From Bacillus norwichensis (lineage in GTDB: Bacteria > Bacillota > Bacilli > Bacillales > Bacillaceae_C): 24,000 bases of DNA. Below the pieces are notes generated by a model. That model made no database searches. It saw nothing but the letters and a program-made list of their open reading frames with translations, and was not told the DNA's origin. The translations under genes were made by a program, and so were the position numbers. How positions within the stretch are numbered: the first letter of the stretch is position 1; each line of letters opens with the position of its first letter. The stretch lies in the NCBI RefSeq assembly GCF_014836955.1, contig NZ_JACSPV010000001.1:60765-84764 (forward strand), written 5' to 3'. Positions 390 through 23,236 of this stretch are shown piece by piece.

Positions 390-638
390 GAAAAGCGCAA
401 GCGTGTTTTATAGGCCCGCGTCGGGGGCAACAAGTGCCGTTTCTTCCTTAGGCCAATTCAGCGGGGTAAATTTGATGCACCTGTTTTTTTCGGTGCAAAA
501 TTAGTCAAGCGCTCAGGAAGGACTTCTGCCTTGCAATGGGCGCTCGCAAACTTTGCACGCAACACCCCTGTCGCTTCGCCTGCACTTCCCGTACGTCGAA
601 CCAATGCTGGTTTATGGAGGTGGGGCAGGACAGGCATC
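390..638. repeat. Full-length copy (A) of a dispersed structured intergenic repeat family; canonical orientation taken as minus
   Basis: Carries all family motifs in order on the plus strand: GAAAAGCGCAAGCG 390-403, ATTCAGCGGGG 456-466, GGGCGCTCGCAAA 538-550, hairpin GCAACACCCCTGTCGC 559-574, GTACGTCG 591-598, ACAGGCATC 630-638. No credible ORF. Confidence 0.45.
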
Positions 639-676
639 ATCTGAAGTTGAGCCTTACTAAATGAAACCTAAATAAA

Positions 677-701
677 AGATCTGCGAAAAGCTTGCAGATC
701 T
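677..701. terminator. Bidirectional rho-independent terminator
   Basis: 8-bp stem AGATCTGC / GCAGATCT with a 9-nt loop. An A-run lies upstream and a T-run downstream. It abuts the stop codon of the minus-strand phosphodiesterase gene. Confidence 0.7.
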
Positions 702-703
702 TT

Positions 704-1435
704 TTATTGATATTGCTCTCTCAGTCGGCAAGCCCTCCCCGGATAATCGGTAATGATTGCTGAACAATTGATGGCAAATAATCTCTTCATATCTTTTTCT
801 TTATTGACTGTATATGGCCTGACAGCAACACCGCAAGCCATGGCATTCTCGATTTCTTGATCGGAAATTGATTTCAATTTTGGATGAATACCACTCGCTC
901 CAAGAGACAGCGCATAGTCCCAAGGCTTGTATAAAGCCTCGTTATATAATGGAGCTGTCACAATTGCAGATTCAATTTCCCTGCAGAAGGCCAAGGAATT
1001 GTGATTGAATGAAGAAATAATCACTCTTTTTTCCAAACAAAACTCGCGTGTCAATGCTATGACTCTTTCTTCCATACCTCTGTAAGGATTGACCGCATTT
1101 TTCAATTCAATATTACATAATAAATTATTTCCTTCAAGCCATTTAAATACTTCGCGCAAGGAAGGGATCCTACAGCTTTTTTTAAAATAGTGAAGGGAAT
1201 GGTAGTTGGCTTTCAATTTAGAGAGCTCGCTGAATGTAAGCTCATTAACATAGCCGCTCCCGTTCGTGGTTCTGTCCACAGTGAGGTCATGAATCACCAC
1301 CACTTCTCCATCCGCTGTTAGTTGTACATCAAGCTCAATCCCGTCTGCCCCATCTGTTTCTGCTGCAATGAAGGCTTCCATCGTATTTTCAGGGTGAGTT
1401 CCTGCAGACCCCCGATGTGCAAAAATAAATGTCAT
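704..1435 (-). CDS. Glycerophosphodiester phosphodiesterase (GDPD family, YqiK-like)
   Basis: 243 aa. N-terminal FAHRG...PENT and ELDVQLT.DG..VV.HD motifs are typical of the GDPD family. Synteny next to spo0A matches B. subtilis yqiK. Confidence 0.9.
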   Translation of the reverse strand: MTFIFAHRGSAGTHPENTMEAFIAAETDGADGIELDVQLTADGEVVVIHDLTVDRTTNGSGYVNELTFSELSKLKANYHSLHYFKKSCRIPSLREVFKWLEGNNLLCNIELKNAVNPYRGMEERVIALTREFCLEKRVIISSFNHNSLAFCREIESAIVTAPLYNEALYKPWDYALSLGASGIHPKLKSISDQEIENAMACGVAVRPYTVNKEKDMKRLFAINCSAIITDYPGRACRLREQYQ

Positions 1436-1526
1436 CTGCTCACCGCCTAAAGTAGGTTAATTACATCATACCCTTTTTAGGCATTATATGCGCGAATAGA
1501 GAATTAGCGAGAGACTCATGAATTTT

Positions 1527-2309
1527 TTAAGAAGCTTTATGCTCTAGTCTTAGCTTATCTGCCACCATCGCAATAAATTCGGAATTTGTAGGTTTAGCCT
1601 TTGACATACTGACCGTATAGCCAAACAGAGAAGAGATCGCATCTATATTCCCGCGGCTCCATGCGACTTCAATAGCATGACGGATCGCCCTTTCAACCCG
1701 ACTTGCTGTCGTATTGAACTTCTTTGCAATGTCTGGGTAGAGGACCTTTGTAATAGCACCCAAAAGCTCAATATCATGATAAACCATTGAAATAGCTTCT
1801 CGTAAATATAAATATCCTTTAATATGTGCAGGTACTCCGATTTCATGAATAACCGACGTGATGCTGGCTTCAAGATTTTGAGGCTTTTTGTCTTCTTGGG
1901 TTTTTACAGACGGACTTGTTTTAAAGGAAGGCATCCCTTTTTCACTAACATCTCGAATGTGATTAGCCAAATATTCCATGTCAAACGGCTTGAGGATGAA
2001 ATAAGAAGCTCCAAGCTCCACTGCTTTTGTCGTCACATCTTCCTGGCCGAAAGCTGTTAGCATGATTACATTTGGGAAACGGATGTTGGAATTCCGCAAC
2101 CTTTCAAGAACTCCAAGGCCGTCCAAATGCGGCATAATAATATCCAGCACTAAAACATCCGGATCCACCTTTTCCAATAGGTTTAGACATTCCTGTCCGT
2201 TGTGAGCGGTTCCAATCACTTCAATATCAGATTGTGTTGACATATAATCTTCTAGTAGAGCGACAAGTTCACGGTTATCATCGGCAAGTACAACTTTTAT
2301 TTTATTCAA
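1527..2309 (-). CDS. spo0A: Sporulation master response regulator Spo0A
   Basis: 260 aa. The receiver domain (DDN...D...PHLDG) and the C-terminal half ([19 protein letters not shown]...[14 protein letters not shown]) are near-identical to B. subtilis Spo0A. TTG start preceded by GGGGAGGAAGAG. Confidence 0.98.
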
Positions 2310-2454
2310 TTCTCTTCCTCCCCATTATAAAAAAAGAATAAAATTGCTTTTACTATATTCTAACAAACAAATACGCCAATGGAAGGTAAATTCCTTTAAA
2401 TTCTTTTAAAATAAGGAAAAAATACATATAATACTTAAATTTGCTAATTCTTTC

Positions 2455-2500
2455 AGACGAATTCGCCATTTTTTGATAAAATGTACTAATTTTTGTCGAA
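2455..2500 (-). promoter_or_regulatory. Cluster of Spo0A-binding 0A boxes (TGNCGAA) in the spo0A upstream region
   Basis: TGTCGAA at 2494-2500 (plus). TGGCGAA on the minus strand at 2462-2468. This abuts AGACGAA at 2455-2461, giving the palindrome AGACGAATTCGCCA. B. subtilis spo0A is autoregulated through 0A boxes between its two promoters. Confidence 0.5.
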
Positions 2501-2654
2501 TTTTCTTTTTTTCTAAAAAAATAAAGAGTAGGAAAACTGGAAAAACATGGGTAACAGCGCAAGGCGGTCATCCACTTGAATTCAAAACGGAAAAAAATTC
2601 TTCTGCGGCGGTCACCTTTCTCCCATAAAAAAGAGGACGCATAATGCGCCCCCG

Positions 2655-3941
2655 TCAACTGACCTTATCCAAGTTTTGGTGTTCATAAATATCAATGCCC
2701 GCCTCATGCAGCATCCATTCGATATGAACTCCGTAACCGGATGTCGGATCATTTACAAAAACATGGGTGACTGCACCGATTAATTTTCCGTCCTGTATAA
2801 TCGGGCTTCCACTCATCCCTTGAACAATTCCGCCTGTTTTATTCAATAGCCGTTTATCGGTCACTTTTATAACCATTCCTTTTGTTGCCGGAAACTTTTG
2901 TGGAACGGTGCTAACAATCTCAATATCATAAGGTTCTACCTGGTTTCCTTCTACAACCGTCAAAATTTTTGCTGGCCCTTCTTTTACCTGATGAGATAAT
3001 CCAATCGGCATTTCCTTGTCCAATGCCCCATTATTAATGTTCTTCTTTAGTTTCCCGAAAATCCCAAAAGGACTGTTTAAAGTGATATTCCCAATGACAT
3101 CACGGTTTCCTGAAAAACGAGCCAATTTTTCTCCAGGGTTACCATTTTTCCCTTTTTCAATAGCTGTTACAGTCGATTTTACAATTTGCCCATTTTCAAC
3201 AACGATTGGCTTTTTTGTGTCAATATCTGAAATGACATGACCCAAAGCCCCGTATTTTTTTGATTTTGGTTCATAAAAAGTCATTGTACCGATGCCGGCA
3301 GCAGAGTCCCTTATATATAAACCCAATTTATATTCTTGTTCCTTTTCATCCTTCAGCGGCAGCAGCTTTGTTTGAAATTTCTCTTTTTCACGCTGTACAG
3401 TCAGATCTAGTGCTTTACCGCTCTTTCCCGCATCTTCCACAAACGGAGCCACCTGTTCCATTTTCTTAATTTCTTTTCCGTTGATTTTTGTAATAATGTC
3501 CCCCACCTGAATTCCTGCATCTTCGCCTGGAGAGCCCTTCTCCGATTTTGTCGAAACTAGATGATGCCCAACAACAAGGACTCCAAGGGTATTAAGCCTA
3601 ACCCCGATTGATTGACCGCCAGGGAAAACCTTAAAGTTTTTCAGGACATTTACATCAACTTTTTTCACAGGCAATCCAGCTATTTGTAGAAAAAGCTCGT
3701 CTTTTCCAGGAGCTTCAGCGGTTAATGAAACAGATTTTGCCTGTTCCGAATACGTAAAGTTCTCAGGAGAATCTGCCATTGTCGAGACGGCTGCACCTTT
3801 AGGAATGATCTGCTCCTGTCCTTCCAGCAATGTAATATTTGACGGGATATTAACATATTGCTGAAAAGGCTTGGAAAAGCCTAGAAGAAGAAGTGAAACA
3901 AGGAGAAGTCCACCTATCAATTGTCTAAGTCGATCTTTCAT
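2655..3941 (-). CDS. spoIVB: SpoIVB signalling serine peptidase (PDZ plus S55 peptidase)
   Basis: 428 aa. Long identical blocks to B. subtilis SpoIVB ([55 protein letters not shown]). Confidence 0.97.
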
Positions 3942-4061
3942 ACGTCCATTTTCACTCTCCTCGCCTTCTAGTCCACAGTTATAATTTGACCTCAGGAGCC
4001 TGCATTTATAACCAGGAGCGTGAAAAAAAGATGTCCAATGAAGGATAGGATTACAAGCTTT

Positions 4062-5744
4062 TTAATTATTTTTCAATGTATAGGCAAACTCGACCAATTC
4101 TTTGGCATGCTTTTTCGTAATCGTGGTGATTTCAGTTCCGGCTATCATGCGGCCAATTTCATTTATTTTCTCGGCTTTATCAAGGTTTTTGATTGCTGTC
4201 CGCGTTCTTCCCTCAGTGATCTTCTTCGAAATAAGCAAATGTGTATCAGCCATTGCCGCTACCTGCGGCAAGTGTGATATACAAAGAACTTGCGAGTAAT
4301 TTGAGATTTGGTGAATTTTTTCGGCCATGGCCTGAGCCACTCTGCCGCTGACCCCGGTATCCACTTCATCAAAGATAACAGATGTGACCCTCTTTGAAAA
4401 AATGGTTTTAAGGGCTAGCATAATTCTCGACAATTCTCCTCCCGACGCTACTTTCGATAAGAGCTTCAACGGTTCTCCCGGATTAGTGGAAAGGTAAAAT
4501 TGCACATCATCCAATCCGTTTATGTTCTCGTCCTGCTTTTGAAAAATAACGTCAAAAACAGTCTTATCCATATACAACACTTTCAATTCCTTTTGAATAG
4601 CGCTTTTTAGTTTCTCTGCCCACTTTTTGCGAAGTTTGCTTAATTGAGTCCCAATCTCCAGAACTTCCTCCCTGAGGGAAGCATGTACTTCTTGGAGCTG
4701 TTCAATCCGGCTGTCACGGTGAATGATTGATTCCGCTTCTTCCTTTATCTTTTCCAAATAATCAAGAATATCCTCAACTGTAAAGCCATATTTCCGTTTA
4801 AGCTGATTGATTTCATTCAACCTAATTTCAATTTCGTTTAATCTTTGAGAGTCAAACTCCAATAAATCAAGTTCGTTTCTCAGTACCCTAGCTGTATCTT
4901 CAAGTAAATAAAAACTGTTTGAAACCGATTCGAACATGGCTTTGTAATTATTGTCGATTTCCGCTGCTGTTTCTAGAACACTCATGGCTTGTCCGACAAA
5001 ATCCAACCCTTTTTGATCTTCTTGAAGATTTTCATACCCAGCTTTCAACGATTCAAACAGTTTTTCATAATTGACCAAACGCTTTCTTTCTTCCTCAAGT
5101 ATTTCATCTTCATTTAACTTTAAACCGGCTTTCTCAATCTCTTGCACTTGAAACTGCAACAGATCAAGCCTTTGGGCCATCTGTTGTTCATTTTTACTCA
5201 ATTCGCTGATTTTCTTTTCGACATCAACCAGTTCAGCGTATTTTTTTCGGTAATCAATCAGTGACTTGGCTATTTCATCCTTGCCAAATTCGTCAAGCAG
5301 AAATAAGTGCATGGATTCATTCATCAATTCCTGATGCTCATGCTGGCCATGGATATCAATCAGCATGCTTCCTAGATCCCTCAAAACGGTCAATGTCACA
5401 AGCTTTCCGTTGATTCGACAGACACTTTTTCCACTGTTTGAAATTTCACGGCGAAGAACCAACATCCCCTCTTCGATTTCAATGCCCAATTCGGCAGCTT
5501 TTGCATAGCAGGTATGATTATCATGAACGAAAAAAAGACCTTCAATCTCCGCTTTTGGCTTGCCGTGCCTGACATATTCCGCGGAACCGCGGCCTCCTAC
5601 CAATAAATGGATCGCATCAATGATAATGGATTTTCCAGCTCCTGTTTCTCCCGTTAAAACTGTCAGTCCCTCGGAGAATGAAATGGATATCTGCTCAATG
5701 ATTGCAAAGTTTCTGATCGTCAACTCCTGTAGCAAAGACTCCAC
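4062..5744 (-). CDS. recN: DNA repair protein RecN
   Basis: 560 aa. N-terminal Walker A (LTGETGAGKSIIIDA), long coiled-coil middle, C-terminal SGGELSR signature. The start is uncertain: GTG at 5744, or TTG at 5735 downstream of GGGGTGGAG. Confidence 0.96.
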   Translation of the reverse strand: MESLLQELTIRNFAIIEQISISFSEGLTVLTGETGAGKSIIIDAIHLLVGGRGSAEYVRHGKPKAEIEGLFFVHDNHTCYAKAAELGIEIEEGMLVLRREISNSGKSVCRINGKLVTLTVLRDLGSMLIDIHGQHEHQELMNESMHLFLLDEFGKDEIAKSLIDYRKKYAELVDVEKKISELSKNEQQMAQRLDLLQFQVQEIEKAGLKLNEDEILEEERKRLVNYEKLFESLKAGYENLQEDQKGLDFVGQAMSVLETAAEIDNNYKAMFESVSNSFYLLEDTARVLRNELDLLEFDSQRLNEIEIRLNEINQLKRKYGFTVEDILDYLEKIKEEAESIIHRDSRIEQLQEVHASLREEVLEIGTQLSKLRKKWAEKLKSAIQKELKVLYMDKTVFDVIFQKQDENINGLDDVQFYLSTNPGEPLKLLSKVASGGELSRIMLALKTIFSKRVTSVIFDEVDTGVSGRVAQAMAEKIHQISNYSQVLCISHLPQVAAMADTHLLISKKITEGRTRTAIKNLDKAEKINEIGRMIAGTEITTITKKHAKELVEFAYTLKNN

Positions 5745-5750
5745 CCCTAA

Positions 5751-6200: not shown

Positions 6201-6367
6201 ATTACCCACCCCGTTCATTTTACAGCGTATTGTATTTTTATACGTTCACTATCAAGTATTATAATGAACACAAAACAATGGCGCAAGCGACTATTAGTTG
6301 ATGTAAAGAGAATCACTATTAAGCCTGCTGCCGATTTATTCAAGAAAAAAAGGCAATCCTGATTAGA

Positions 6368-7210: not shown

Positions 7211-7214
7211 CTAT

Positions 7215-9116: not shown

Positions 9117-9731
9117 TCACTTTCGTTTCTTGTTTTTTTGCTTCGTTTTTTTCTTCTTATTGTCTTTAATGATTGAAAGATGAAATCTCTCTTCAAGAAA
9201 TTGCATCAACTTTCCCACACGAAATATTATATCCCGTGAGTGCGAAATGGCAAAAGATTTGCCAAGCGCTTTTCCGCCTAATGTCAATGCTGCAATAAGG
9301 CTTGTCAGTCCAACGTTTATTGCATATTCGGCTGGAGAAGCACTGGATAGACCAGCACTTTGGGCTATTTGGATGACAACGAGCGCAGCAGCCGTCCCGC
9401 TGATGATGCCGGATATATCCCCTATTACATCATTGCAAAAGCTTGCGACACGGTCGGCATTCCTTACAATACGTATGGAATGTTTAGCGCCGTATATCTT
9501 TCTTGAAGCCATCGAATGGAATGGAGTTTCATTTGCGGCAGCTGCAGCAATCCCAATCATATCAAAAAAGATCCCAATTAATACAATAAACAGTACAACA
9601 AGAAGACCATAGGTCCACGATACTCCAATCAGTATACCATTGGAAGCAATTGAAAAAATAGCCGCTAACACGAAAGTGATAACGGCAATGCTAATACTCC
9701 ATTTTATGGAATTTTTTATCAATTCATTCAT
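9117..9731 (-). CDS. oapA: Four-TM membrane protein with a lysine-rich tail; candidate OLE-associated protein OapA
   Basis: 204 aa (about 22 kDa). Four predicted TM helices. Lies directly downstream of the candidate OLE RNA and directly upstream of dxs, at a junction where B. subtilis has no gene. Published OapA is a roughly 21-kDa 4-TM protein in exactly this position. Homology was not verified by search. Confidence 0.7.
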   Translation of the reverse strand: MNELIKNSIKWSISIAVITFVLAAIFSIASNGILIGVSWTYGLLVVLFIVLIGIFFDMIGIAAAAANETPFHSMASRKIYGAKHSIRIVRNADRVASFCNDVIGDISGIISGTAAALVVIQIAQSAGLSSASPAEYAINVGLTSLIAALTLGGKALGKSFAISHSRDIIFRVGKLMQFLEERFHLSIIKDNKKKKTKQKNKKRK

Positions 9732-9774
9732 AATAAACGTTCATTCACCGTTCTTCTTCATTAGCTTGGATGGT

Positions 9775-10370
9775 CATAAGAAGAGTAAAAATTACGGCTT
9801 AGGTCCAGTAGGTTTTCCCAGATAGGTACCGCATGTCGCCATAACGGCGGTTTCCCTTTAAACCCATCTTGGCATTGTCACCAAATGCCAGACTGGATTG
9901 CCACTTAGTCCGTACTCTAATCCCCTTCATATGTCCCTTGGAACAGTCTAGGAGATTTCCTCAACAGCCTTTAACCTAGTTCCTAGCCTCTTTTGCAAAA
10001 CTGATTTCATATGGACTGAAGAAATCAGCACGATGGCCAACCGAACTGTTTTCTTATAACCATAATCCCCTCAAGCTTCACTCAAGGCAGGCTACGCTGC
10101 TAGTGATGCCCTTCATCACGTTGCAGGTCTATACTTCACTTTCGCGCAATGCATTTAAGCTAGCCGAACATAGCGAAGCCTCCACGGTAAAAGGGGCTAC
10201 GCCCACATGCCTTTGCGGATCGCCCTTATACCTTTACTCCCAGCTCCAACCCAAGGCTAGGCTCCTCAAGCCGAAACAAGGAACTTCATCGATGTGCCCT
10301 TTAGTGAATTTTTAGGCTCACCTTCAGAACCGGTAGACCGACTAGAATACTGCACCATCCGATAATCTGC
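9775..10370 (-). ncRNA. ole: Candidate OLE (ornate, large, extremophilic) RNA; boundaries approximate
   Basis: The 682-nt gap between ispA and the 4-TM ORF has no credible ORF. Context is xseA-xseB-ispA-[RNA]-[4TM]-dxs-tlyA...recN. Several perfect hairpins: 9871-9889 (6 bp), 10001-10028 (8 bp), 10103-10119 (6 bp), 9836-9850. A strong promoter lies just upstream. The expected size of about 600 nt fits. Confidence 0.78.
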
Positions 10371-10375
10371 AAAAA

Positions 10376-11525: not shown

Positions 11526-12880
11526 TCTTTTGCACCTTCTTCTTTATTATCGATTGTACAATTCAGTTTTCCATCTACAAGAGTCAGCACCAATTTATCC
11601 CCGATTTCCCCCTGGTGGACACTTTTTATGAGCTTTCCCTCTTCTGTATGTGCCACGTTAAAGCCTCTACGAAGTATACTTAAAGGGTTCAGAGCGTCAA
11701 GTGTAGCCGTTTTCCCCATAAATTCGGTAATTTTCGATTTAATGACCGCATGCACTTCCTGCTGGAGTCTTTTTTCAGCTCGTTCAGCCCGTTCTTTATT
11801 CATTTCCACCAGTGCAGAGGGATGACTTCTTGCAAGCCGGCTGCTCAGTTCTGCATAACGGTTTTTTTTCTGAACAATAATATGGTTATGTGCTGTTTGA
11901 AGGGTTTCTTTCATTCTGTCAAGCTGCTCCCATTTTTGCTCGTACAGCTTATGGGGGTTTCTCAGTATGTAAGACTGCTCCATATAATTCAATTGATTTC
12001 GCCTTGTTTTGATGATGGCTCCCATGGCTTGATAAAGCCGGGCTTTCCGCTGCAAAAGCTGTTCTAAGAGATCTTCGATATGAGGAACTGCCAATTCCGC
12101 TGCTGCTGTAGGAGTTGCGGCTCTAAGATCGGCAACAAAGTCTGCAATCGTCACATCTGTCTCATGACCGACCGCGGAAATAACAGGAATGCGTGATCCG
12201 AAGATCGCCCTTGCTACTACCTCTTCATTAAACGCCCATAATTCTTCAATAGATCCCCCACCGCGTCCAACAATTAAGACATCGGCAACATTACCTGCAT
12301 TTGCTTTCTGTATTGCTTCGGCGATTGTCTTGGAAGCAAGTTTCCCTTGTACAAGGGCAGGGATAACCAATATTTGTCCCATGGGATATCTGCGTTTGAT
12401 CGTGGTGATAATATCCCGGATTGCAGCACCTGTAGGAGAAGTAATGATACCTATTACCTTAGGAAAAGCCGGAATGGGCTTTTTAGATTCCCTCGAAAAC
12501 AGTCCTTCCTTTCCAAGCTTTTCTTTCAATTGTTCAAAAGCAAGAAAAAGTTCACCTATTCCATCAGGCTGCATCTCTTGAACATAGATTTGATATTGCC
12601 CGCTCATTTCATAGACGCTTATGCTTCCTCTAAGAAGAACATTCATGCCGTTTTCTGGGATAAACTTCATTCCAGAAGCATTTCTAGCAAACATAACAGC
12701 CATAATCCGTGCATCTTCATCTTTCAATGTAAAATACATGTGGCCGCTTGAGTGTTTTTTAAAGTTGGAGATTTCTCCTTTAACATACACCTGCTCCAAG
12801 TGAGGGTCTGCATCAAATTTTCTTTTTATATATTTCGTTAAAGCTTTTACCGTCAAATATTCTGGATGTTGAATGTCCAA
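11522..12880 (-). CDS. xseA: Exodeoxyribonuclease VII large subunit
   Basis: Strong match to B. subtilis XseA ([27 protein letters not shown]). Start moved from 12961 to TTG at 12880, which lies 5 nt after GGAGGGGAG and gives 452 aa (B. subtilis about 448). The extra 27 track codons fall in repeat sequence. Confidence 0.93.
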
Positions 12881-12912
12881 ACTGCTCCCCTCCACTTCTT
12901 GTAGTATCAAGT

Positions 12913-13309
12913 GACGTACAGGATGTACTAGCGCAAACGATGCGACAGGACATCGCCTCATCCATGCACCTTCATTTTCTATTTTACACCGATTACCGTG
13001 TTTATGCCTTTTGTGATTTAATGAAGAAAATTAAAAGGCGCGCAGTCATAGGCGACAAGCACAAGGCGAATTTTAATGAGGGAGGAAGTCCCTTACCCAC
13101 CACAGCAAAGCTACTCATGTTCATTACATCGTGAAAAACTGATGTTTCATGACAGCTTTGTGACGAAGGAAACAATGATTCCTTGAACTGTACAGCAGGA
13201 GTACATTCTGACAAAATAAACTTCTGCGTGATTTGGTCCCTATGCCATGGGGCCTCTGCGTCTAATACTTCTTGTCCGTCGGCAGGCTCAGATCGCGACA
13301 TCCTGTCGC
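12913..13309. repeat. Copy (C) of the dispersed structured repeat family, filling an approximately 550-bp folD-xseA gap
   Basis: GACGTACAGGATG at 12913-12925. Quasi-palindrome GCGACAGGACATCGC at 12942-12956. Perfect hairpin GCGACA-TCC-TGTCGC at 13295-13309. An AAAAGGCGCGCAG...ATAGGC...ACAAG block at 13033-13066 is collinear with copy A at 391-437. Confidence 0.45.
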
Positions 13310-13373
13310 TGGAGAAAGATAAACCTTCCCTTGAATAAAATTTCCCATAACAAGTTATACTTTCATTACTCAC

Positions 13374-13407
13374 AAAAAAGCTGCCTCTTTTTTATAGTCG
13401 ACAGCTT
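13374..13407 (-). terminator. Possible weak terminator after folD
   Basis: Minus strand: AAGCTG (13407-13402) pairs with CAGCTT (13383-13378), then TTTTGTG follows. The 18-nt loop is long for an intrinsic terminator. Confidence 0.3.
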
Positions 13408-13437
13408 CTAGCAATTCATATTATATTCTACTATTAT

Positions 13438-15248: not shown

Positions 15249-15269
15249 TAAAGGCACCTCCGTTTATTT

Positions 15270-16619: not shown

Positions 16620-16631
16620 TTATTTCGCTCC

Positions 16632-17141: not shown

Positions 17142-17178
17142 ACACGACACTCCTTAAAAATTATGAGTAGCTCTTAAT

Positions 17179-17208
17179 ATCATAATATAACAGGTTATAT
17201 AAATTCAA
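17179..17208 (-). promoter_or_regulatory. Possible SigA promoter for accB-accC
   Basis: Minus strand: TTGAAT (17208-17203), 18-nt spacer, TATGAT (17184-17179), about 35 nt upstream of the accB SD. Confidence 0.35.
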
Positions 17209-17247
17209 CGACGACAGGGTAAATATACAGAAATAAATAGTAAAATG

Positions 17248-17560
17248 CAACAAGAAAAGTAAAGATGCCTGTTTATCGACGTACAGACTGGAGAGGTTCT
17301 GACGAGATAATGGAAACACGCGCAACGAAGTGAAGCGATGTTGACTTATCGTAGGAAGAACCTTGAAGTCTGATAGTCGATAGGCATCGGAACTAGACAA
17401 CAAGAAAAGTAAAGACGCTGTCCATCAGCATTAGATAGGCGGGGGAAAATCTTCAAAACGTGGTTAGCGGAGTACCCAGATGACTCAAGCCACGATGCTC
17501 TATCATATGTTACGTCATGGTCAACATCTAATCAACAAACTGCTAGTCATTCTGACAACG
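17248..17560. repeat. Copy (D) of the dispersed repeat family in plus orientation; two diverged tandem units, the first a rod-like hairpin
   Basis: Exact 18-nt direct repeat CAACAAGAAAAGTAAAGA at 17248-17265 and 17398-17415 (150-bp period). Family motifs GATGCCTGT 17264-17272, CGACGTACAG 17277-17286, GAAGCGATGTTG 17332-17343. Five nested helices lie between 17264 and 17388. Confidence 0.5.
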
Positions 17561-17574
17561 AAAAAAATGCGCTC

Positions 17575-17611
17575 AAAAAAGAAAGACGGACAGGCCCCCT
17601 TCCTCTCCATC
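17575..17611 (-). terminator. Rho-independent terminator of the spoIIIA operon
   Basis: Minus strand: GATGGAGAGG, loop AAGGGGG, CCTGTCCGTC (10-bp stem with one G-U pair and one mismatch), followed by TTTCTTTTTT. It starts 7 nt after the spoIIIAH stop. Confidence 0.7.
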
Positions 17612-17617
17612 GTGTTC

Positions 17618-18816: not shown

Positions 18817-19439
18817 GGATCATCGGTTCCTCCCTTCACTACCAATTCTATTTTCGAATCTGGCACGTCCCATTCGCTTGCGAGCATGTTTCGGAGCTCT
18901 TTAGTCCTCCTGGATTGATTAAGCCTTGGCTGATCCTTAATCTGAATTGATACCTGTTCCACCTCAGCCACCGAATCTTTTTTTCTCGTCGGCTCGACAT
19001 AGACAGTTATTTTATTAATAGATTTCAAAATGCTTTCCGCATCCTGCGCGGGAGAAGAAGTGCTGGATATATCGATATTAGTTATGGTCATGCCATGACT
19101 TGCAATCATCTCCTTTTCCACTTTCTCTTTAAGTTGGACAGCCATTTGCTCTAATATATATGCATGCTGTGATGTTTCTATTTCTCTTTTTTTTTCTTCC
19201 AATGATTTTTCCATATCTGTGTTCGGGTTACTTTGATCATTTAAAAATGATTGTAAAGCTTGATCAAAATCAGTTGAGAGAAACTTAAATATGGGCGTCA
19301 CGACAATTGAAATCAACAAGAGACCTACAACAAACTTCACATATTTCTTCATCGCTGTATCCGGGAGAAGCATGTCCACAATCATAGCCAGCAGAATAAA
19401 AATAACGATATTTATAACCCATTCTGAAATAAGCTGCAT
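18813..19439 (-). CDS. spoIIIAF: Stage III sporulation protein AF
   Basis: 208 aa. Two N-terminal TM helices (W..NI..F.LLA.I.D.LLP....KY.K...GL). GGGAGGGA SD. Operon order supports the call. Confidence 0.9.
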   Translation of the reverse strand: MQLISEWVINIVIFILLAMIVDMLLPDTAMKKYVKFVVGLLLISIVVTPIFKFLSTDFDQALQSFLNDQSNPNTDMEKSLEEKKREIETSQHAYILEQMAVQLKEKVEKEMIASHGMTITNIDISSTSSPAQDAESILKSINKITVYVEPTRKKDSVAEVEQVSIQIKDQPRLNQSRRTKELRNMLASEWDVPDSKIELVVKGGTDDP

Positions 19440-19455
19440 GAAAATTCCCTCCCTA

Positions 19456-20643
19456 TCAGCGAATCATCATCGTAACGTTCCCTGATGTAATGACGATGGT
19501 TACGCAGAGAAAAAACATGAAAGAAACAATCGCTAAGGACGCAAAAACATACATCATACATTTGCCTATTAAGTCTAGACATTTGATAATAGGGCCATCG
19601 CCAACAGGTTGAAGCAACGCACCTGCAAGCTTATAAACTAAAATAATAATCAAGATTTTCACTCCAGGAAAAGCGGCAATCAGCAAAATAATGGCTACTC
19701 CTGCCAGACCAACTGTATTTTTGATCAGTACCGATGCAGTTAATACGGTATCTGCTGCATCCGTGAACATTCTTCCCACAACTGGCACAAAATTGCCAGT
19801 GACATATTTGGCTGTTCTGATTGCAACACCATCTGTCACAGCCGTGGCTGTCCCTTGGATGGAAATAACACCTAAAAGCACGGCCATGAAGACACCAAGA
19901 ATGCCTATACCCGCTTTTTTAAATAAGTTGGACAGCTTTGTCACCTTATAATTTTCACTCAAGGCGCTGACAATCCCCAAAAGCAATGCCATAAATAAAA
20001 GCGGCAATACAACGGTCTGAATAAGGAGACCACTTGTCTGGATCAAAAAGATTAACACAGGATGAAAGAATGCAGCAGATGTGACACCTCCTGCCGAAGC
20101 AATCAAGGCAAGTATGAGCGGAATAAGAGCATAGATAAATTGTGACATCGATTCAATTGCTGTCACCGCATAATCTACTGTGACCCGAAAACTGTTGAGT
20201 GCGATGATAATAAGAACCATGAATACAACCGCATAGGCAACCTTGGAAACAGCTCCTTTCTCAAATGCTGTGTGCAGCGATTGCAGAAAGGAGCTGAAAA
20301 TCGTTAATAGTAATAACGTTCCCAGTAGCTTTCCATTCATGGTCAGCTCCTGAAAAGCAAATGCTCCAATTCCACGAAACCACTCTTTTATGGAAAAAGA
20401 CTTTTCCCCTTTTAAGAATTCAAGAAGTGTTCCCTTCTGACTTTCAGGCAAATATCCCCCATATTCATCCATAATGCCTTCCCAAAACCCTTGGAGCTCT
20501 TCAATTCCCAGCGTTTCAATCTGTTCATCCACCATTTTTGTAATGATATCGTTTGATGGTTCTTCTTCCTGCTCCGCCTGAACTGCAGATGCACCTGCAA
20601 AAAGTACAAAGCAGAATAAGAACAGCTGAATCATGTTCCGCAT
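19456..20643 (-). CDS. spoIIIAE: Stage III sporulation protein AE (polytopic membrane protein)
   Basis: 395 aa. Signal peptide, then blocks near-identical to B. subtilis SpoIIIAE (GKLLGTL.LLTIF, VSKVAY..V.MVLII.ALNSF, GNF.PV.GRMFTDA.DTV). Confidence 0.95.
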   Translation of the reverse strand: MRNMIQLFLFCFVLFAGASAVQAEQEEEPSNDIITKMVDEQIETLGIEELQGFWEGIMDEYGGYLPESQKGTLLEFLKGEKSFSIKEWFRGIGAFAFQELTMNGKLLGTLLLLTIFSSFLQSLHTAFEKGAVSKVAYAVVFMVLIIIALNSFRVTVDYAVTAIESMSQFIYALIPLILALIASAGGVTSAAFFHPVLIFLIQTSGLLIQTVVLPLLFMALLLGIVSALSENYKVTKLSNLFKKAGIGILGVFMAVLLGVISIQGTATAVTDGVAIRTAKYVTGNFVPVVGRMFTDAADTVLTASVLIKNTVGLAGVAIILLIAAFPGVKILIIILVYKLAGALLQPVGDGPIIKCLDLIGKCMMYVFASLAIVSFMFFLCVTIVITSGNVTMMIR

Positions 20644-20673
20644 ATTCTTCCCCTCCGCCTATCACGCACGCTG

Positions 20674-21069
20674 TTATCTGACTGGCATCATATTGATAAT
20701 CGTATCAATCAGAACAGTCAAAATGGGGACAGCCAATGCCAGGATCAGTATTTTCCCTGCTAATTCAACCTTCGCCGCCATGGCCCCCATTCCGGCATCT
20801 TTGCTTATATGCGAGGCAAATTCAGCAATATAGGCAATTCCGATAATTTTTAATATTGTTTTGACATACATCGTATTAATACCGGCATTTGCGGCCAAAA
20901 CTTCAATTGTTGTGATGATTCCATGTATCTGGTCCACCAAAAATAAAAAAATGGCACATCCCGTGAATAAGATTAGCAAAAAAGCAAAAGTCGGTTTCTG
21001 TTCTTTGATGATAAGGGCTAAAAAGGTAGCAATGAGGGCAATGCCCGCTATTTGCAGTATGGCAATCAC
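20674..21069 (-). CDS. spoIIIAD: Stage III sporulation protein AD
   Basis: 131-aa hydrophobic protein. The start MIAILQIAGIALIATFL and the IGIAYI.EFA motif fit SpoIIIAD. Operon order supports the call. Confidence 0.92.
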   Translation of the reverse strand: MIAILQIAGIALIATFLALIIKEQKPTFAFLLILFTGCAIFLFLVDQIHGIITTIEVLAANAGINTMYVKTILKIIGIAYIAEFASHISKDAGMGAMAAKVELAGKILILALAVPILTVLIDTIINMMPVR

Positions 21070-21081
21070 CGTTCCCTCCCA

Positions 21082-21285
21082 TCATTGAAATAAGAAGACC
21101 GATCTTATTTTTTGAAAAAGACCATCTACGATTGTAACAACCATGAACAAAATATAGATAAACCCGAACAGAGTAACCCATTGGGCGTATTCCTTTTTCC
21201 CGACTTGGTCAAGAATTGTATGCAAGAAGGCAACAACGATGCCGACCCCTGCTATTTTGAAAATCACATCCACATCAATGCCCAT
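21082..21285 (-). CDS. spoIIIAC: Stage III sporulation protein AC
   Basis: 67-aa two-TM protein (FKIAGVGIVVAFLHTIL.Q.GK.E.A). GGGAGGAA SD 7 nt upstream of the ATG. Confidence 0.92.
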   Translation of the reverse strand: MGIDVDVIFKIAGVGIVVAFLHTILDQVGKKEYAQWVTLFGFIYILFMVVTIVDGLFQKIRSVFLFQ

Positions 21286-21304
21286 ATCCTATTTCCTCCC
21301 ATCC

Positions 21305-21407
21305 TTAAAGAAAACGCAAGCGGCTTGTGACCTTGAGGGGCTTGGCGCTGGCCGCCTTGAGCCGCCACATTCTGTGGTTTTGGTGGCATCCTGTACATCG
21401 GCTGGCC
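21305..21407. repeat. Short GC-rich member of the dispersed repeat family, inserted between spoIIIAB and spoIIIAC
   Basis: GAAAACGCAAGCG at 21310-21322 matches copy A at 390-403. CATCCTGTACATC at 21387-21399 is the reverse complement (12/13) of 12913-12925. Direct repeat CCTTGAG at 21331-21337 and 21355-21361. Positions 21320-21407 are about 64% G+C by hand count. Confidence 0.45.
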
Positions 21408-21447
21408 AAAGAAACTTCTTTTACATAAAGCAGGTTATCCTTCCTCT

Positions 21448-21963
21448 TCAAAAAAGCAGGATAATAAACAATAGTCCGGATAAAACGCCTAGGCTTTTCA
21501 TAATTTTTTCGTATTTTTTCTGTTTCTCCCTTGCTTCATCCTCTTCCCTGTCGAGATGGGTAACTGCCAGCAGTATTTGTTTTTGTTGCGTATACCGGTC
21601 ATGCCTCCCAAGACTTTCACCAAATTGCATGAGAATTTCATATTCCCCGGATTTCATATCCGTATCTTGCCATATCTCATCAAGGCTTTCCTTCCATGCT
21701 GACTTGACGGTTGCATCTGTTTTGGAAAGTTTTTCAGAAAAAATTTTATATAAGCGTGCGGCTGGTTCGGGCATCTGTGATGATATTTTGTTTGCAGCTT
21801 CTCCAAGCGGGGTATGGCTGTACATGATTTCAGCATCTAATGCTTGCAGAGAGTCTTTAATGATTCGCAGTTGTTTCGGTCTCCGGGTCAAATGGCTGGA
21901 TGCTTCAAACCCTGCCCAAGTTGTTGTTACGACTATCAAAAGAGCGCCAATCAGTTTAAACAT
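21448..21963 (-). CDS. spoIIIAB: Stage III sporulation protein AB
   Basis: 171 aa, the same length as B. subtilis SpoIIIAB. Matching blocks include KL.GA..IVV.TTW.GFE, L..L.AEIMY.HTPL, FGE.LG.HDR..Q.K. Confidence 0.93.
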   Translation of the reverse strand: MFKLIGALLIVVTTTWAGFEASSHLTRRPKQLRIIKDSLQALDAEIMYSHTPLGEAANKISSQMPEPAARLYKIFSEKLSKTDATVKSAWKESLDEIWQDTDMKSGEYEILMQFGESLGRHDRYTQQKQILLAVTHLDREEDEAREKQKKYEKIMKSLGVLSGLLFIILLF

Positions 21964-22870
21964 GGGTATTCACAACTTGTCCGTTTTGATCTTTAATGGA
22001 AATAACAGTCCCCGGGCCATTATCCCGCGATAATTCAATGAATCGCTGAAAAACCTGCTGCTCAATAATTTCCCTCAGCAAAGGTCTTTTGATGATTTCC
22101 TCCAAATCATTTCCATGGGTAGTCATCATTAACGTAATTCCGGCATTAACGGCCTCCATGATAGCTTCCTTATCTTCTCTGCGGCCAATTTCATCGACAA
22201 TCAGCACGTCTGGACTAAGCGCCCTGATCATCATCATCATCCCTTCTGCCTTCGGACAAGCATCAAGCACATCAACTCGCGTTCCGAATTGCAATTGAGG
22301 AATTCCATGTATACAGCCGGCTATTTCAGACCTTTCATCGACAATCCCTGCTTTCATGGGAGAAATTTCTCTTTTGGGATAGCCAGTGGATACAATTCTT
22401 GCAAGATCACGCAACAATGTTGTTTTCCCTGTTTGGGGAGGTCCAATAATCATGGTATGTTTCCATCCCCCCTCATACAAAAATGGGATGAAATGTTCAG
22501 ACGCCCCGATTTTTTCCCGGGCAACCCTTATATTAAAGGAAGCCAAATGCCTCAAGGCTTTTACTCTTCCACCTTCCAATATAACTTTTCCAGCAAGCCC
22601 AATCCGATGCCCGCCCTCAATCGTGATATATCCCCTTCTCAATTCTTCATCCAATGTATAAAATGAGTGGCCGGCCAAATTACTAATCAACTGCTCCGAG
22701 TCATCTCGTGTAAACAAATAAGGCAAGTAGCTTGTCACTTCTCTTGCAGTTACTTCTACTTGCCGGTTGATCCGGAGACGTATCTCTTCTATCCGAGCTT
22801 TCGTTTCTTCAGGCATGGCATCAATTAATTTTGAGATCTCAGTTGGCAGGATGCGAATGATATTTTCCAA
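21956..22870 (-). CDS. spoIIIAA: Stage III sporulation protein AA (AAA+ secretion-type ATPase)
   Basis: Walker A IIGPPQTGKTTLLRDLAR and Walker B LIVDEIGR. Strong match to B. subtilis SpoIIIAA. Start moved from TTG at 22918 to TTG at 22870, 5 nt after GGGAGAGGG. This gives 304 aa (B. subtilis 307) and clears the putative SigE promoter. Confidence 0.94.
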   Translation of the reverse strand: MENIIRILPTEISKLIDAMPEETKARIEEIRLRINRQVEVTAREVTSYLPYLFTRDDSEQLISNLAGHSFYTLDEELRRGYITIEGGHRIGLAGKVILEGGRVKALRHLASFNIRVAREKIGASEHFIPFLYEGGWKHTMIIGPPQTGKTTLLRDLARIVSTGYPKREISPMKAGIVDERSEIAGCIHGIPQLQFGTRVDVLDACPKAEGMMMMIRALSPDVLIVDEIGRREDKEAIMEAVNAGITLMMTTHGNDLEEIIKRPLLREIIEQQVFQRFIELSRDNGPGTVISIKDQNGQVVNTHV

Positions 22871-22903
22871 TGCAACCCTCTCCCAGACTTCTTTTCTACC
22901 TAA

Positions 22904-22931
22904 TATGTATTCGGCCAAGCCTCAATTATGA
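22904..22931 (-). promoter_or_regulatory. Putative SigE-type promoter of the spoIIIA operon
   Basis: Minus strand: TCATAAT (22931-22925; consensus kmATATT), 13-nt spacer, AATACATA (22911-22904; consensus CATACAnT). B. subtilis spoIIIA is SigE-dependent. Confidence 0.4.
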
Positions 22932-22993
22932 CCAGGCTCCCTTGTTGAAGAACAAAAAATTATCACAAAAAAATTGATCGAGCGGACTCCCTG

Positions 22994-23097
22994 TTTAACT
23001 TTATTCAGCAGAAGTCTCCCACTTCTTAAGTGGAGAGATAAATGCCTACTGGGATTCCATTCAGCGAGGGTTCAAACCCAGGCTGAATAAAGTTAAA
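22994..23097. repeat. 104-nt element (E) closed by a perfect 16-bp inverted repeat, with an internal three-way-junction fold
   Basis: TTTAACTTTATTCAGC at 22994-23009 is the exact reverse complement of 23082-23097. Inner hairpin at 23015-23038 (10 bp with one bulge, loop CTT). A second inner stem is GCCT(act)GGG / CCCAGGC. It contains ATTCAGCGAGGG, related to copy A at 456-466. Confidence 0.5.
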
Positions 23098-23236
23098 GCC
23101 TCCGGCGGATACCACAGATTTTCAGAGGAAATGTATCGAGAGAAAGCTCGATAAAATCTGGGCGCAAATACGCCAAGGCGCATTTGATCGTGATATAGTA
23201 GTATTAAGACTGAATGAAAAGCAGGTGCACATATCC

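What the first reader, a model, noticed from the sequence alone, without database searches (positions are those of the whole stretch)
390..23180. Unclassified dispersed, structured intergenic repeat family: at least five copies in 24 kb
Five intergenic inserts share short motifs in conserved order. These motifs do not stand out anywhere in the coding sequence I read. The motifs are listed here with coordinates on the plus strand. (1) GAAAA(G)CGCAAGCG at 390-403 and 21310-21322, with a related AAAAGGCGCGCAG at 13033. (2) ATTCAGCG(A)GGG at 456-466 and 23057-23069. (3) GGGCGC..CAAA at 538-550 and about 23160-23170. (4) The small hairpin GCGACA-N3/4-TGTYGC at 559-574, 13295-13309 and, degenerate, 12942-12956. 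(5) GACGTACAG(G) at 591-598 (reverse complement), 12913-12925 and 17277-17286, plus 21387-21399 (reverse complement, 12/13). (6) GATGCCTGT at 630-638 (reverse complement) and 17264-17272. Copies occur in both orientations and range from about 100 to about 330 nt. They are GC-richer than the approximately 40% GC background and fold into long imperfect hairpins. This is the behaviour of a REP/BOX/MITE-like element or a multi-copy small-RNA family. I cannot assign it to any named family.
Basis: seen in the sequence. Interest (0 to 1): 0.7.

Follow-up and report, generated by a model that had tools for sequence, protein, structure and literature searches.

The report
Decayed Bacillaceae-1 repeats plus two others
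The five long gaps between genes hold real, lineage-specific repeat insertions. They belong to three unrelated families, and the one linking three gaps is a worn-down relative of the known Bacillaceae-1 RNA motif, so the finding is real but mostly ordinary.

Summary
Inside the window alone, the five gaps are no more alike than random pieces of the same window. Relatives change the picture. The window comes from a Siminovitchia species close to S. terrae, and in this clade the same gaps have expanded by insertions that are absent from three more distant congeners.

Three families are involved:
- **Family A (gaps 1, 2 and 4; four to five copies).** A 58-65 nt double hairpin with AGGAN loops and covarying stems. 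It is tandemly repeated four times in S. terrae between spoIIIAB and spoIIIAC. Better-preserved copies reach the Rfam threshold for Bacillaceae-1 (RF01690). The window copies do not (best 18.5 bits against a threshold of 35). Reader motifs 4 and 5, and probably 1, are true fragments of it.
- **Family C (gap 3).** A roughly 150-nt unit that folds into one long hairpin.
- **Element B (gap 5).** A roughly 210-nt structured element, inserted here and at other loci in relatives.

Motifs 2, 3 and 6 are chance matches.

The AGGA strand of family A resembles CsrA-binding hairpins. That idea was already published for Bacillaceae-1 and is still untested. My strand tests were inconclusive.

The parts
12912..12974 (+). 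Best-preserved family A unit, a double hairpin related to Bacillaceae-1. Hairpin 1 is GTAC-AGGAT-GTAC; hairpin 2 is GCGAC-AGGAC-ATCGC; the outer stem has decayed. The AGGA strand is '+', which is antisense to xseA/folD.
   Evidence: The custom covariance model R1, built only from non-window copies, scores it 44.7 bits, E 1.7e-9. nhmmer gives E 1.8e-13. Rfam RF01690 scores 18.5 bits at 12915-12976(-), below the gathering score of 35.
13251..13310 (-). One and a half decayed tandem family A units. 13288-13310 is hairpin 2 (GCGAC-AGGAT-GTCGC). 13251-13281 is a remnant resembling hairpin 1. They are inverted relative to the unit at 12912.
   Evidence: R1 scores 17.4 bits (E 4e-3) and 10.3 bits (E 0.2). 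blastn matches 13267-13310 to the S. terrae array at 91%, E 1.6e-11.
13024..13101 (-). 'R' module that follows family A units at several loci. It ends in CTGCGCGCCTTTTAATTTTCTT and contains reader motif 1c.
   Evidence: nhmmer with a profile from L090, L091 and the L081 efp-aroD copy gives E 1.1e-9. blastn to the L091 spoIIIAB-AC gap gives 77% over 87 nt, E 1.6e-11.
12893..13358 (.). A lineage-specific insertion of about 466 nt between the folD terminator and the xseA ribosome-binding site, bounded by inverted family A units. It carries a spurious 123-aa ORF (13002-13373, minus strand).
   Evidence: Alignment of filled and empty sites: this gap is 557 nt here but 102 nt in S. terrae and 71-98 nt in three more distant congeners. 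The ORF has no homologue.
539..598 (-). Decayed family A unit in gap 1. Hairpin 1 is partly deleted. The hairpin 2 loop has mutated to AGGGG.
   Evidence: R1 scores 21.4 bits, E 5e-4. nhmmer gives E 1.8e-6. The left flank CATTGGTTC is shared with the L116 copy.
388..403 (-). Possible end of an R module (CGCTTGCGCTTTTCTT, reader motif 1). The support is weak.
   Evidence: nhmmer with the R profile gives E 0.55. By eye it resembles the R ends in L090, L091 and gap 4.
21344..21400 (-). Decayed family A unit between spoIIIAB and spoIIIAC, in sense orientation to the operon. Hairpin 1 is lost. Hairpin 2 is CCAC-AGAAT-GTGG, with a compensatory stem change.
   Evidence: R1 scores 19.9 bits, E 1.1e-3. 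nhmmer gives E 5.9e-7. At the same site S. terrae has four tandem 58-nt units and L091 has two.
21286..21322 (-). Truncated R-module end (GCCGCTTGCGTTTTCTTTAAGGATGGGAGGA, reader motif 1) running into the spoIIIAC ribosome-binding site.
   Evidence: 94.6% identity over 37 nt to L091 and 86% to L090 at the orthologous position. Sequences compared.
17240..17420 (+). Family C. One full unit of about 150 nt (17240-17371 matched; it folds into a hairpin of about 135 nt) plus the first ~20 nt of a second tandem copy from 17398. Unrelated to Bacillaceae-1 except for a shared CGACGTACAG 10-mer.
   Evidence: nhmmer with a non-window profile gives E 5.4e-28. Fold z-score is -6.3. Copies at other loci: L116, L101 and the L090 efp-aroD gap.
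22993..23205 (+). Element B. A structured element of about 210 nt (a 16-bp stem closing a three-way junction, then a long hairpin) inserted between aroK and spoIIIAA.
   Evidence: The S. terrae aroK-spoIIIAA gap lacks it. A copy at 90% identity lies at a different locus and in the opposite orientation in S. terrae (efp-aroD), and a third at 81% in metagenome contig L112. nhmmer gives E 4e-62. Fold z-scores are -4.2 and -5.0.

Best explanation
**What it is.** The long gaps are recent insertions and expansions of short structured repeat modules. These modules have colonised intergenic sites in the Siminovitchia terrae clade. Three unrelated families are present.

**Family A.** The family that ties gaps 1, 2 and 4 together is a decayed relative of the Bacillaceae-1 RNA motif (Rfam RF01690).
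- Each unit is 58-65 nt. It has one 4-5 bp hairpin, then a 7-bp outer stem enclosing a second 5-6 bp hairpin.
- Each hairpin presents a conserved pentaloop: AGGA(C/U/A) on one strand, which reads RUCCU on the strand that Rfam models.
- Units multiply by tandem duplication with a 58-nt period. The spoIIIAB-AC site holds 1, 2 or 4 copies in three species.
- Units appear at new sites together with flanking modules, such as the R module.

**How it most likely works (inferred).** The paired loops are a docking site for a dimeric binding partner. The best candidate is CsrA, when the AGGA strand is transcribed. The hairpins match the CsrB-type CAGGA(U/C/A)G loop and the hairpin in the B. subtilis-group hag leader, GGCAC-AAGGAC-GTGCC.

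**State of the window copies.** They are mostly relics. Only the copy at 12912-12974 keeps both AGGA loops, and it is antisense to its operon. I therefore expect little or no function here.

**Shown and inferred.**
- Shown: homology, covariation, insertion polymorphism and multi-locus dispersal.
- Inferred: the binding partner, the functional strand and the means of spread.
For: **Source organism.** SpoIIIAH is 92% identical to that of S. terrae, and the public contigs are from the same species.

**Gap lengths across seven relatives.**
- spoIIIAB-AC: 162, 416, 425 and 425 nt, against 15, 15 and 0 nt.
- spoIIIAH-accB: 467, 738, 549 and 248 nt, against 163-167 nt.
- folD-xseA: 557 nt, against 71-205 nt.

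**Family A as a real repeat.**
- S. terrae has a tandem array of 3.9 copies of 58 nt at 94% match, and L091 has 2.0 copies.
- Gap-to-gap blastn links the window's gap 2 to these arrays at E 1e-11 to 1e-13.
- The iterated HMM and the independent covariance model R1 find the window copies listed under parts.
- No copies are found in L092, L093, L137 or L138. In 860 kb of syntenic DNA from 41 other Bacillales there is one weak partial hit.
- An exact 23-nt pattern hits 24 distinct metagenome contigs, often at contig ends.

**Structure.** 85.9% of cells pair, against 15-43% when partners are slid. Nine of 16 pairs show changes on both sides. None of 500 shuffles reaches the covariation score. Loops read AGGA(C/T/A) in 38 of 45 first hairpins and 30 of 45 second hairpins.

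**Identity with Bacillaceae-1.** Rfam scores are 35.6-71.7 bits for twelve metagenome copies, and 36.4 and 35.6 bits for two S. terrae copies; the gathering score is 35.

**CsrA idea.**
- Gardner and Eldai 2015 reported that the reverse complement of Bacillaceae-1 matches the CsrA-binding motif, and that the discoverers were unsure of the strand (PMC4333381).
- Weinberg 2010 noted that the two RUCCU loops suggest a homodimeric protein (PMC2864571 supplement).
- The hag leader hairpin was read directly in L126 at 1808-1823.
Against: - **Rfam threshold.** The window copies fail it: the best is 18.5 bits, and there is no hit in whole-window scans at E<=5.
- **Similarity inside the window.** It is not above chance.
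- **Gaps 1 and 4.** The copies rest on modest E-values (5e-4 and 1e-3) from a roughly calibrated model. The gap-4 copy is also supported by synteny. Whether gap 1 is an insertion could not be tested, because only same-species contigs were retrievable.
- **No strand signal.** There are 22 G.U cells on the AGGA strand and 18 on the UCCU strand. The AGGA strand is sense at about 8 loci and antisense at 3.
- **No transposition signature.** No terminal inverted repeats or target-site duplications were seen at the filled and empty sites compared.
- **csrA not shown.** Presence of csrA in Siminovitchia was not demonstrated. The top 120 hits of the CsrA search were all from other genera.
- **No validation found.** The searchable literature holds no experimental test of CsrA binding to Bacillaceae-1.
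Confidence: 0.62

Rival explanations
1. The units are a DNA-level repeat of the REP/BIME type. The hairpins would form in single-stranded DNA and be recognised by a Y1 (RAYT or IS200/IS605-like) transposase that copies them to new intergenic sites. They would have no RNA function.
For: - Copies occur in both orientations. There are inverted pairs (12912-12974 against 13251-13310) and tandem arrays.
- Presence and absence vary between close species.
- G.U-compatible mismatches are symmetric on the two strands, 22 against 18, as expected if both strands or the DNA are under selection.
- Orientation relative to genes is not significantly biased.
- The mosaic association with other modules (R, B, C) resembles BIMEs.
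Against: - No transposase gene was seen in any fetched locus.
- A loop conserved as AGGAN in two hairpins spaced about 29 nt apart is more typical of a dimeric RNA-binding protein site.
- Bacillaceae-1 was rated 'certainly RNA' by its discoverers on covariation grounds.
- RAYT-linked REPs are, to my knowledge, uncommon in Bacillota.
Confidence: 0.2
2. The functional strand is the one Rfam models, with RUCCU loops. The units would be small RNAs, or parts of them, whose UCCU loops bind another dimeric protein or pair with AGGA/Shine-Dalgarno sequences. They would not bind CsrA.
For: - The Rfam and Weinberg orientation is the RUCCU strand.
- Three loci, including the best window copy, place the AGGA strand antisense to both flanking genes.
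- G.U counts do not favour the AGGA strand.
Against: - The discoverers were reported to be unsure of the strand.
- The arrays in S. terrae and L091 lie inside operons with the AGGA strand as the sense strand.
- A three-unit metagenome cluster is preceded by a promoter-like TG-TAAAAT on the AGGA strand.
Confidence: 0.13
3. One reading: a single composite element family (MITE/BOX-like) accounts for all five inserts.
For: - Families A, B and C are found next to or inside one another at other loci. In L116 a pair of A units sits inside C. In L112, B lies 135 nt from A. The S. terrae efp-aroD gap holds B and C. The S. terrae spoIIIAH-accB gap holds three A units and C.
- C's arm begins with the same 10 nt as the A unit.
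Against: - Profiles of A, B, C and R each hit only their own gaps in the window.
- No full-length element containing all the modules was found.
- Motifs 2, 3 and 6, which were the links to gaps 3 and 5, are chance matches.
Confidence: 0.05

Closest known systems
Bacillaceae-1 RNA motif (Rfam RF01690; Weinberg et al. 2010)
   Same: - Same architecture: two hairpins with RUCCU/AGGAY pentaloops, one of them enclosed by an outer stem.
- Same bacterial family, many gene contexts, several copies per genome.
- S. terrae and metagenome copies of this repeat score 35.6-71.7 bits, with a gathering score of 35.
   Different: - The window copies are sub-threshold relics (18.5 bits or less).
- In the S. 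terrae clade the outer stem is weakened.
- Units form head-to-tail 58-nt arrays inside operons.
- Units travel with extra flanking modules and show insertion polymorphism between sister species.
CsrB/CsrC and RsmX/Y/Z sponge RNAs that sequester CsrA/RsmA
   Same: Repeated short hairpins present CAGGA(U/C/A)G in the loop, paired at a spacing that suits a CsrA dimer. The S. terrae array would display eight such loops.
   Different: - No binding data exist.
- The copies are dispersed and lie in both orientations rather than forming one dedicated sRNA gene.
- In Bacillota the only known CsrA antagonist is the protein FliW (PMC6546359).
TwoAYGGAY RNA motif (RF01731)
   Same: Two hairpins with GGA-containing loops. 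It was proposed as a CsrA binder in the same 2015 paper.
   Different: The sequence, the taxa (Clostridia and Gammaproteobacteria) and the loop consensus (AYGGAY) all differ. It was not detected here.
Pneumococcal BOX elements (boxA-boxB(n)-boxC) and enterobacterial BIMEs/REPs
   Same: These are modular intergenic mosaics. A central structured unit varies in tandem copy number and is flanked by other modules. Copies occur in both orientations, and sites differ between close relatives.
   Different: No sequence relationship was tested or expected. No associated transposase is known here. The comparison rests on my own knowledge of those elements.

Membership tests
Bacillaceae-1 RNA (RF01690) | Scores at or above the Rfam gathering threshold (35 bits) | tested here: not met
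   - Window: no hit in the gathering or E<=5 scans. The best copy scores 18.5 bits when searched locally.
- Related copies meet the threshold: S. terrae 36.4 and 35.6 bits, and metagenome copies up to 71.7 bits.
Bacillaceae-1 RNA (RF01690) | Two terminal hairpins, each with a RUCCU loop (AGGAY on the other strand) | tested here: inconclusive
   - Met by 12912-12974 (loops AGGAT and AGGAC).
- 13288-13310 keeps one hairpin (AGGAT).
- The gap-1 copy has mutated loops (AGGGG).
- The gap-4 copy has lost hairpin 1 and has the loop AGAAT.
Bacillaceae-1 RNA (RF01690) | Outer stem enclosing one hairpin, with the whole structure supported by covariation | tested here: inconclusive
   - In 28 non-window copies, 9 of 16 pairs covary and 85.9% of cells pair.
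- In the window copies the outer stem is largely broken (alignments).
Bacillaceae-1 RNA (RF01690) | Homology to accepted members shown by an independent profile | tested here: met
   The covariance model R1 and HMMs built without window sequences recover the window copies at E 1.7e-9, 5e-4, 1.1e-3 and 4e-3. The nhmmer E-values range from 1.8e-13 to 9e-5.
Bacillaceae-1 RNA (RF01690) | Expressed as a small RNA acting in trans | not testable with these tools
   No expression data are available. Three of the four window copies lie inside operon spacers and the fourth lies between convergent genes. None has an evident promoter and terminator of its own (for gap 2).
CsrA-sequestering sponge RNA (CsrB/Rsm type) | Many GGA motifs presented in hairpin loops on one transcript | tested here: inconclusive
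   - S. terrae has 8 AGGA hairpins on the sense strand of the spoIIIA operon.
- A metagenome cluster has 6.
- The window has only 3 intact AGGA loops, and they are on different strands.
CsrA-sequestering sponge RNA (CsrB/Rsm type) | Binds CsrA, and csrA is present in the genome | not testable with these tools
   Binding cannot be tested here. The search for csrA listed only other genera among its best 120 hits, so it is uninformative.
MITE (non-autonomous DNA transposon) | Terminal inverted repeats and target-site duplication at the insertion | tested here: not met
   - Filled and empty sites were compared for gap 2 and gap 5. No duplication flanks either insert.
- Element B ends in GTTAAA, which is also present once at the empty site.
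- The gap-2 insert has inverted A units 19 and 48 nt inside its ends, not at the ends.
REP/BIME | Associated RAYT (tnpA-REP) gene in the genome | not testable with these tools
   Only about 27 kb of the genome was accessible, and no transposase was seen in it.

The most novel reading that the evidence does not exclude
Bacillaceae-1 units may be self-amplifying modules that plant arrays of CsrA-binding hairpins into transcripts. The example is eight AGGA loops on the sense strand between spoIIIAB and spoIIIAC in S. terrae. If so, they would be the first RNA antagonists or cis-targets of CsrA in Bacillota, and would couple the flagellin-FliW-CsrA circuit to sporulation or other operons. The window would then show the decay end of that life cycle.
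Probability: 0.1. Interest if true: 0.7.

Novelty: new member of a known kind. Interest (0 to 1): 0.3.

Why it matters
- **Annotation.** The long gaps in an otherwise compact, conserved operon block are repeat insertions, not missing genes. The 123-aa ORF called in gap 2 is probably spurious.
- **The Bacillaceae-1 motif.** This motif is 16 years old and has no known function. The Siminovitchia terrae clade offers a natural experiment on it. The same sites are empty in three congeners. They carry 1, 2 or 4 tandem units in sister species, and the copies are in different states of decay. That makes this clade a good place to test the unresolved strand question and the published CsrA-sponge hypothesis.
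- **Families B and C.** They are unclassified structured repeats. They may deserve their own families if genome-wide counts confirm them.

Tried and rejected
- **Statistics within the window.** Local alignment and shared k-mers, tested against shuffles and real-sequence controls, showed no excess. This test has no power for 60-nt copies this decayed, so I did not treat it as a refutation.
- **Whole-window searches.** The repeat finder and Tandem Repeats Finder found nothing linking the gaps.
- **Genome-collection scan with AccC.** The protein is too conserved.
- **Coding hypothesis for gap 2.** The 123-aa ORF has no homologue other than itself and no Pfam hit. No convincing small ORFs were found in the other gaps.
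- **Viral origin.** Eight viral contigs matched a 17-base pattern, but none matched the unit HMM, so these are chance matches.
- **Strand assignment from G.U against A.C mismatches.** The counts were 22 and 18, which does not discriminate.
- **Strand assignment from orientation relative to flanking genes.** About 8 loci against 3, which is not significant. Crude ORF calls were used, and many units lie at contig ends.
- **Search for csrA in Siminovitchia.** The listed hits were all from other genera.
- **Orthologs of gap 1.** Exact-protein look-ups with DUF2627 and Spo0A returned only the same species.
- **Element B or family C in gap 1.** Neither was found.
- **tRNA or tmRNA.** None found.

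Full report
**Layout of the window.**
- The window is a conserved Bacillaceae gene block, mostly on the minus strand.
- The gene order is spo0A, spoIVB, recN, argR, an FtsJ-type methyltransferase, dxs, a 204-aa ORF, OLE RNA, ispA, xseB/xseA, folD, nusB, asp23, accC, accB, spoIIIAH back to spoIIIAA, then aroK on the plus strand. A DUF2627 gene and a GDPD gene lie at the left end.
  - G1, 316-703, between DUF2627 and GDPD;
  - G2, about 12881-13437, between folD and xseA;
  - G3, 17151-17617, between spoIIIAH and accB;
  - G4, 21286-21447, between spoIIIAB and spoIIIAC;
  - G5, 22919-23224, between spoIIIAA and aroK.
- None holds a tRNA or an Rfam family at threshold. None holds a convincing ORF. 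The 123-aa ORF in G2 has no Pfam hit and no homologue among 5.8 billion proteins.

**Checking the observation inside the window.**
- By themselves the motifs prove nothing. The ten pairwise best local alignments among the five spacers sum to 98. Same-sized sets of real sequence from the window gave 95.9 +/- 3.8.
- The counts of shared 8- to 11-mers sit on the control means.
- The repeat finder and Tandem Repeats Finder link none of the spacers.
- On window evidence alone the 'family' could not be told from chance.

**Relatives change the picture.**
- SpoIIIAH identifies the source as a Siminovitchia species, 92% identical to S. terrae. I fetched the syntenic region from seven relatives.
- Three more distant congeners have compact spacers: spoIIIAB-AC 15, 15 and 0 nt; spoIIIAH-accB 163-167 nt; folD-xseA 71-98 nt.
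- In the window species, S. terrae and a third close species the spacers have grown, and by different amounts: spoIIIAB-AC 162, 416 and 425 nt; spoIIIAH-accB 467, 738 and 549 nt; folD-xseA 557, 102 and 205 nt.
- Aligning filled against empty sites shows two insertions in this species. About 466 nt sit between the folD terminator and the xseA ribosome-binding site. About 190 nt sit in G5.
- The spacers are therefore young insertions, not ancestral sequence.

**Family A.**
- An all-against-all blastn of the spacers exposed a 58-nt unit. It is tandemly repeated 3.9 times in the S. terrae spoIIIAB-AC spacer (94% match) and twice in the third species.
- An HMM seeded on those arrays and iterated finds four copies in the window. 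So does a covariance model built only from 28 non-window copies.

| Window copy | R1 score | E-value |
|---|---|---|
| 12912-12974 (+) | 44.7 bits | 1.7e-9 |
| 539-598 (-) | 21.4 bits | 5e-4 |
| 21344-21400 (-) | 19.9 bits | 1.1e-3 |
| 13288-13310 (-) | 17.4 bits | 4e-3 |
| 13251-13281 (-), adjacent remnant | 10.3 bits | 0.2 |

- G3 and G5 give nothing.
- The G4 copy sits exactly where S. terrae has its four-unit array.
- Reader motif 5 (GACGTACAG) is the 5' end of the unit. Motif 4 (GCGACA..TGTCGC) is its second hairpin.
- Motif 1 lies at the end of an 'R' module that follows the units. R is significant in G2 (13024-13101, E 1.1e-9), truncated but orthologous in G4, and weak in G1.

**Family A is dispersed and structured.**
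- An exact 23-nt pattern from the unit hits 24 different metagenome contigs, often at contig ends, where assemblies break on repeats.
- Viral-contig pattern hits did not match the HMM.
- There are no copies in the four outgroup Siminovitchia loci. Syntenic DNA from 41 other Bacillales (860 kb) gives one weak partial hit.
- The unit folds as hairpin 1 (4 bp), then a 7-bp outer stem enclosing hairpin 2 (5-6 bp).
- On 28 copies, 85.9% of cells pair, against 15-43% for slid partners. Nine of 16 pairs show double changes, for example GCGAC/GTCGC, GCCAC/GTGGC, GTCAC/GTGAC; GTAC/GTAC, GCAC/GTGC, GGAC/GTCC. No shuffle reaches the covariation score.
- Both loops are conserved as AGGA(C/T/A).

**Family A is a known family.**
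- Rfam scans of the better-preserved copies return Bacillaceae-1 (RF01690) on the opposite strand. Twelve metagenome copies score 35.6-71.7 bits. Two S. terrae copies score 36.4 and 35.6 bits. The gathering score is 35.
- The window's best copy reaches only 18.5 bits, and whole-window scans see nothing.
- The window copies are therefore homologous but degenerate relatives. They fail the formal Rfam threshold.
- Weinberg et al. 2010 described Bacillaceae-1 as a likely trans-acting RNA found in many gene contexts. They noted that its two RUCCU loops suggest a homodimeric protein (PMC2864571).
- B. subtilis has eight copies (PMC8208703).

**How it may work.**
- Read on the other strand, the loops are CAGGA(U/C/A)G in short hairpins. 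To my knowledge this is the CsrB repeat consensus.
- I reached the CsrA idea independently and then found it published. Gardner and Eldai 2015 reported that the reverse complement of Bacillaceae-1 matches the CsrA-binding motif. They proposed it as a CsrA-binding sRNA of Bacillales and noted that the discoverers were unsure of the strand (PMC4333381). I found no later validation.
- I read the hag leader of a B. subtilis-group genome directly. Its upstream hairpin is GGCAC-AAGGAC-GTGCC, nearly the same as unit hairpins such as GCAC-AGGAC-GTGC. The literature places one of the two CsrA sites of hag upstream of the Shine-Dalgarno sequence (PMC6546359).
- In S. terrae the array puts eight AGGA loops on the sense strand of the spoIIIA operon.
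- My two strand tests were inconclusive. Wobble-compatible mismatches number 22 on the AGGA strand and 18 on the other. The AGGA strand is sense at about eight loci and antisense at three.
- A DNA-level, REP-like mode of action and spread therefore remains a serious rival. I could not show csrA in this genus.
- In the window only 12912-12974 keeps both loops, and it is antisense to its operon. The others have lost a hairpin or the GGA. I regard the window copies as relics.

**The other two families.**
- G5 holds element B (22993-23205).
  - It is about 210 nt and strongly structured (z -4.2 to -5.0).
  - It is absent from the S. terrae aroK-spoIIIAA spacer.
  - A copy at 90% identity lies in the opposite orientation in the S. 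terrae efp-aroD spacer. Another at 81% lies in a metagenome contig.
  - A profile of B finds nothing in G1, so reader motifs 2 and 3 are chance matches.
- G3 holds family C (17240-17371, plus the start of a second tandem copy at 17398).
  - It is a unit of about 150 nt folding into one hairpin of about 135 nt (z -6.3).
  - It is duplicated in the third species and present at other loci (L116, L101, S. terrae efp-aroD).
  - Its arm begins CGACGTACAGACTGG and so shares ten bases with the family A unit. In L116 a pair of A units sits inside a C copy. The families are associated but not demonstrably homologous.
  - Motif 6 is unsupported.
- Neither B nor C matches any Rfam family.

**Verdict.**
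There are real dispersed structured repeats in all five spacers.
- They belong to three families, not one. The core family is the known Bacillaceae-1 motif in a decayed state.
- No terminal inverted repeats or target-site duplications were found, so these are not classical MITEs.
- The modular layout, with a flanking module, a variable number of tandem units and an R module, works like pneumococcal BOX elements or enterobacterial BIMEs. That comparison rests on my own knowledge and was not tested.
- Novelty is modest: new, sub-threshold members and a new clade-specific expansion pattern of a known motif, plus two unclassified repeats.
- The most useful outcome is that the S. terrae clade is a good system for settling the strand and the proposed CsrA role of Bacillaceae-1.

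Noticed in passing
window 9754-10374 (-), with 9117-9731 (-): A full-length OLE (ornate large extremophilic) RNA scores 502 bits, E 8.6e-145. It lies between ispA and a 204-aa ORF with no Pfam hit, in the position of the OLE-associated protein gene, followed by dxs. OLE is conserved in S. terrae and other relatives at 75-94% identity.
   Followed up: partly
window 13002-13373 (-): A 123-aa ORF is called as a gene in the public assembly GCA_040960395.1. It has no homologue in 5.8 billion proteins and no Pfam hit, and it lies wholly inside the repeat insertion. It is probably a spurious annotation.
   Followed up: yes
window 12880-12961 (-): The longest xseA ORF (479 aa, starting at 12961) runs into the inverted repeat unit. 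The public gene call and the Pfam domain start both point to a start at about 12880 (452 aa).
   Followed up: partly
L097 9169-9510 (also L108, L113): A metagenome locus has three Bacillaceae-1 units (six AGGA hairpins) in about 240 nt. On the AGGA strand they are preceded by a promoter-like TTCATA-16-TAAAAT with an upstream TG, and this is conserved in L108. It is a candidate stand-alone small-RNA gene and could settle the strand question.
   Followed up: partly
L081 3414-3478 (efp-aroD spacer, just outside the window): The window species has a fifth family A unit (30.9 bits) with an R module that ends at the aroD ribosome-binding site. This mirrors the R module ending at the spoIIIAC ribosome-binding site. 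The R end (TTTTCTTAAGGAxGGGA) may supply or mimic a Shine-Dalgarno sequence.
   Followed up: no
L092 2241-2665 (S. sediminis spoIIIAB-AC spacer): This spacer is also 425 nt long but has no family A units. Only its last ~30 nt match the other species, and there is a weak R-module hit (E 0.04). Its content was not identified, so this site seems to be a hot spot for different insertions.
   Followed up: no
window 2310-2660: A very AT-rich stretch (GC 0.24-0.32) lies between spoIVB and spo0A. A 101-aa ORF there has no Pfam hit and is not called in public annotations. It is most likely the spo0A promoter region.
   Followed up: no
L093 13011-13833 and 2788-3488: The outgroup Siminovitchia sp. FSL H7-0308 has its own expanded spacers. 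asp23-nusB is 823 nt, and efp-aroD is 701 nt with a 126-nt tandem repeat at 92% identity. Neither is related to families A, B or C. Different lineages seem to carry different intergenic repeats.
   Followed up: no
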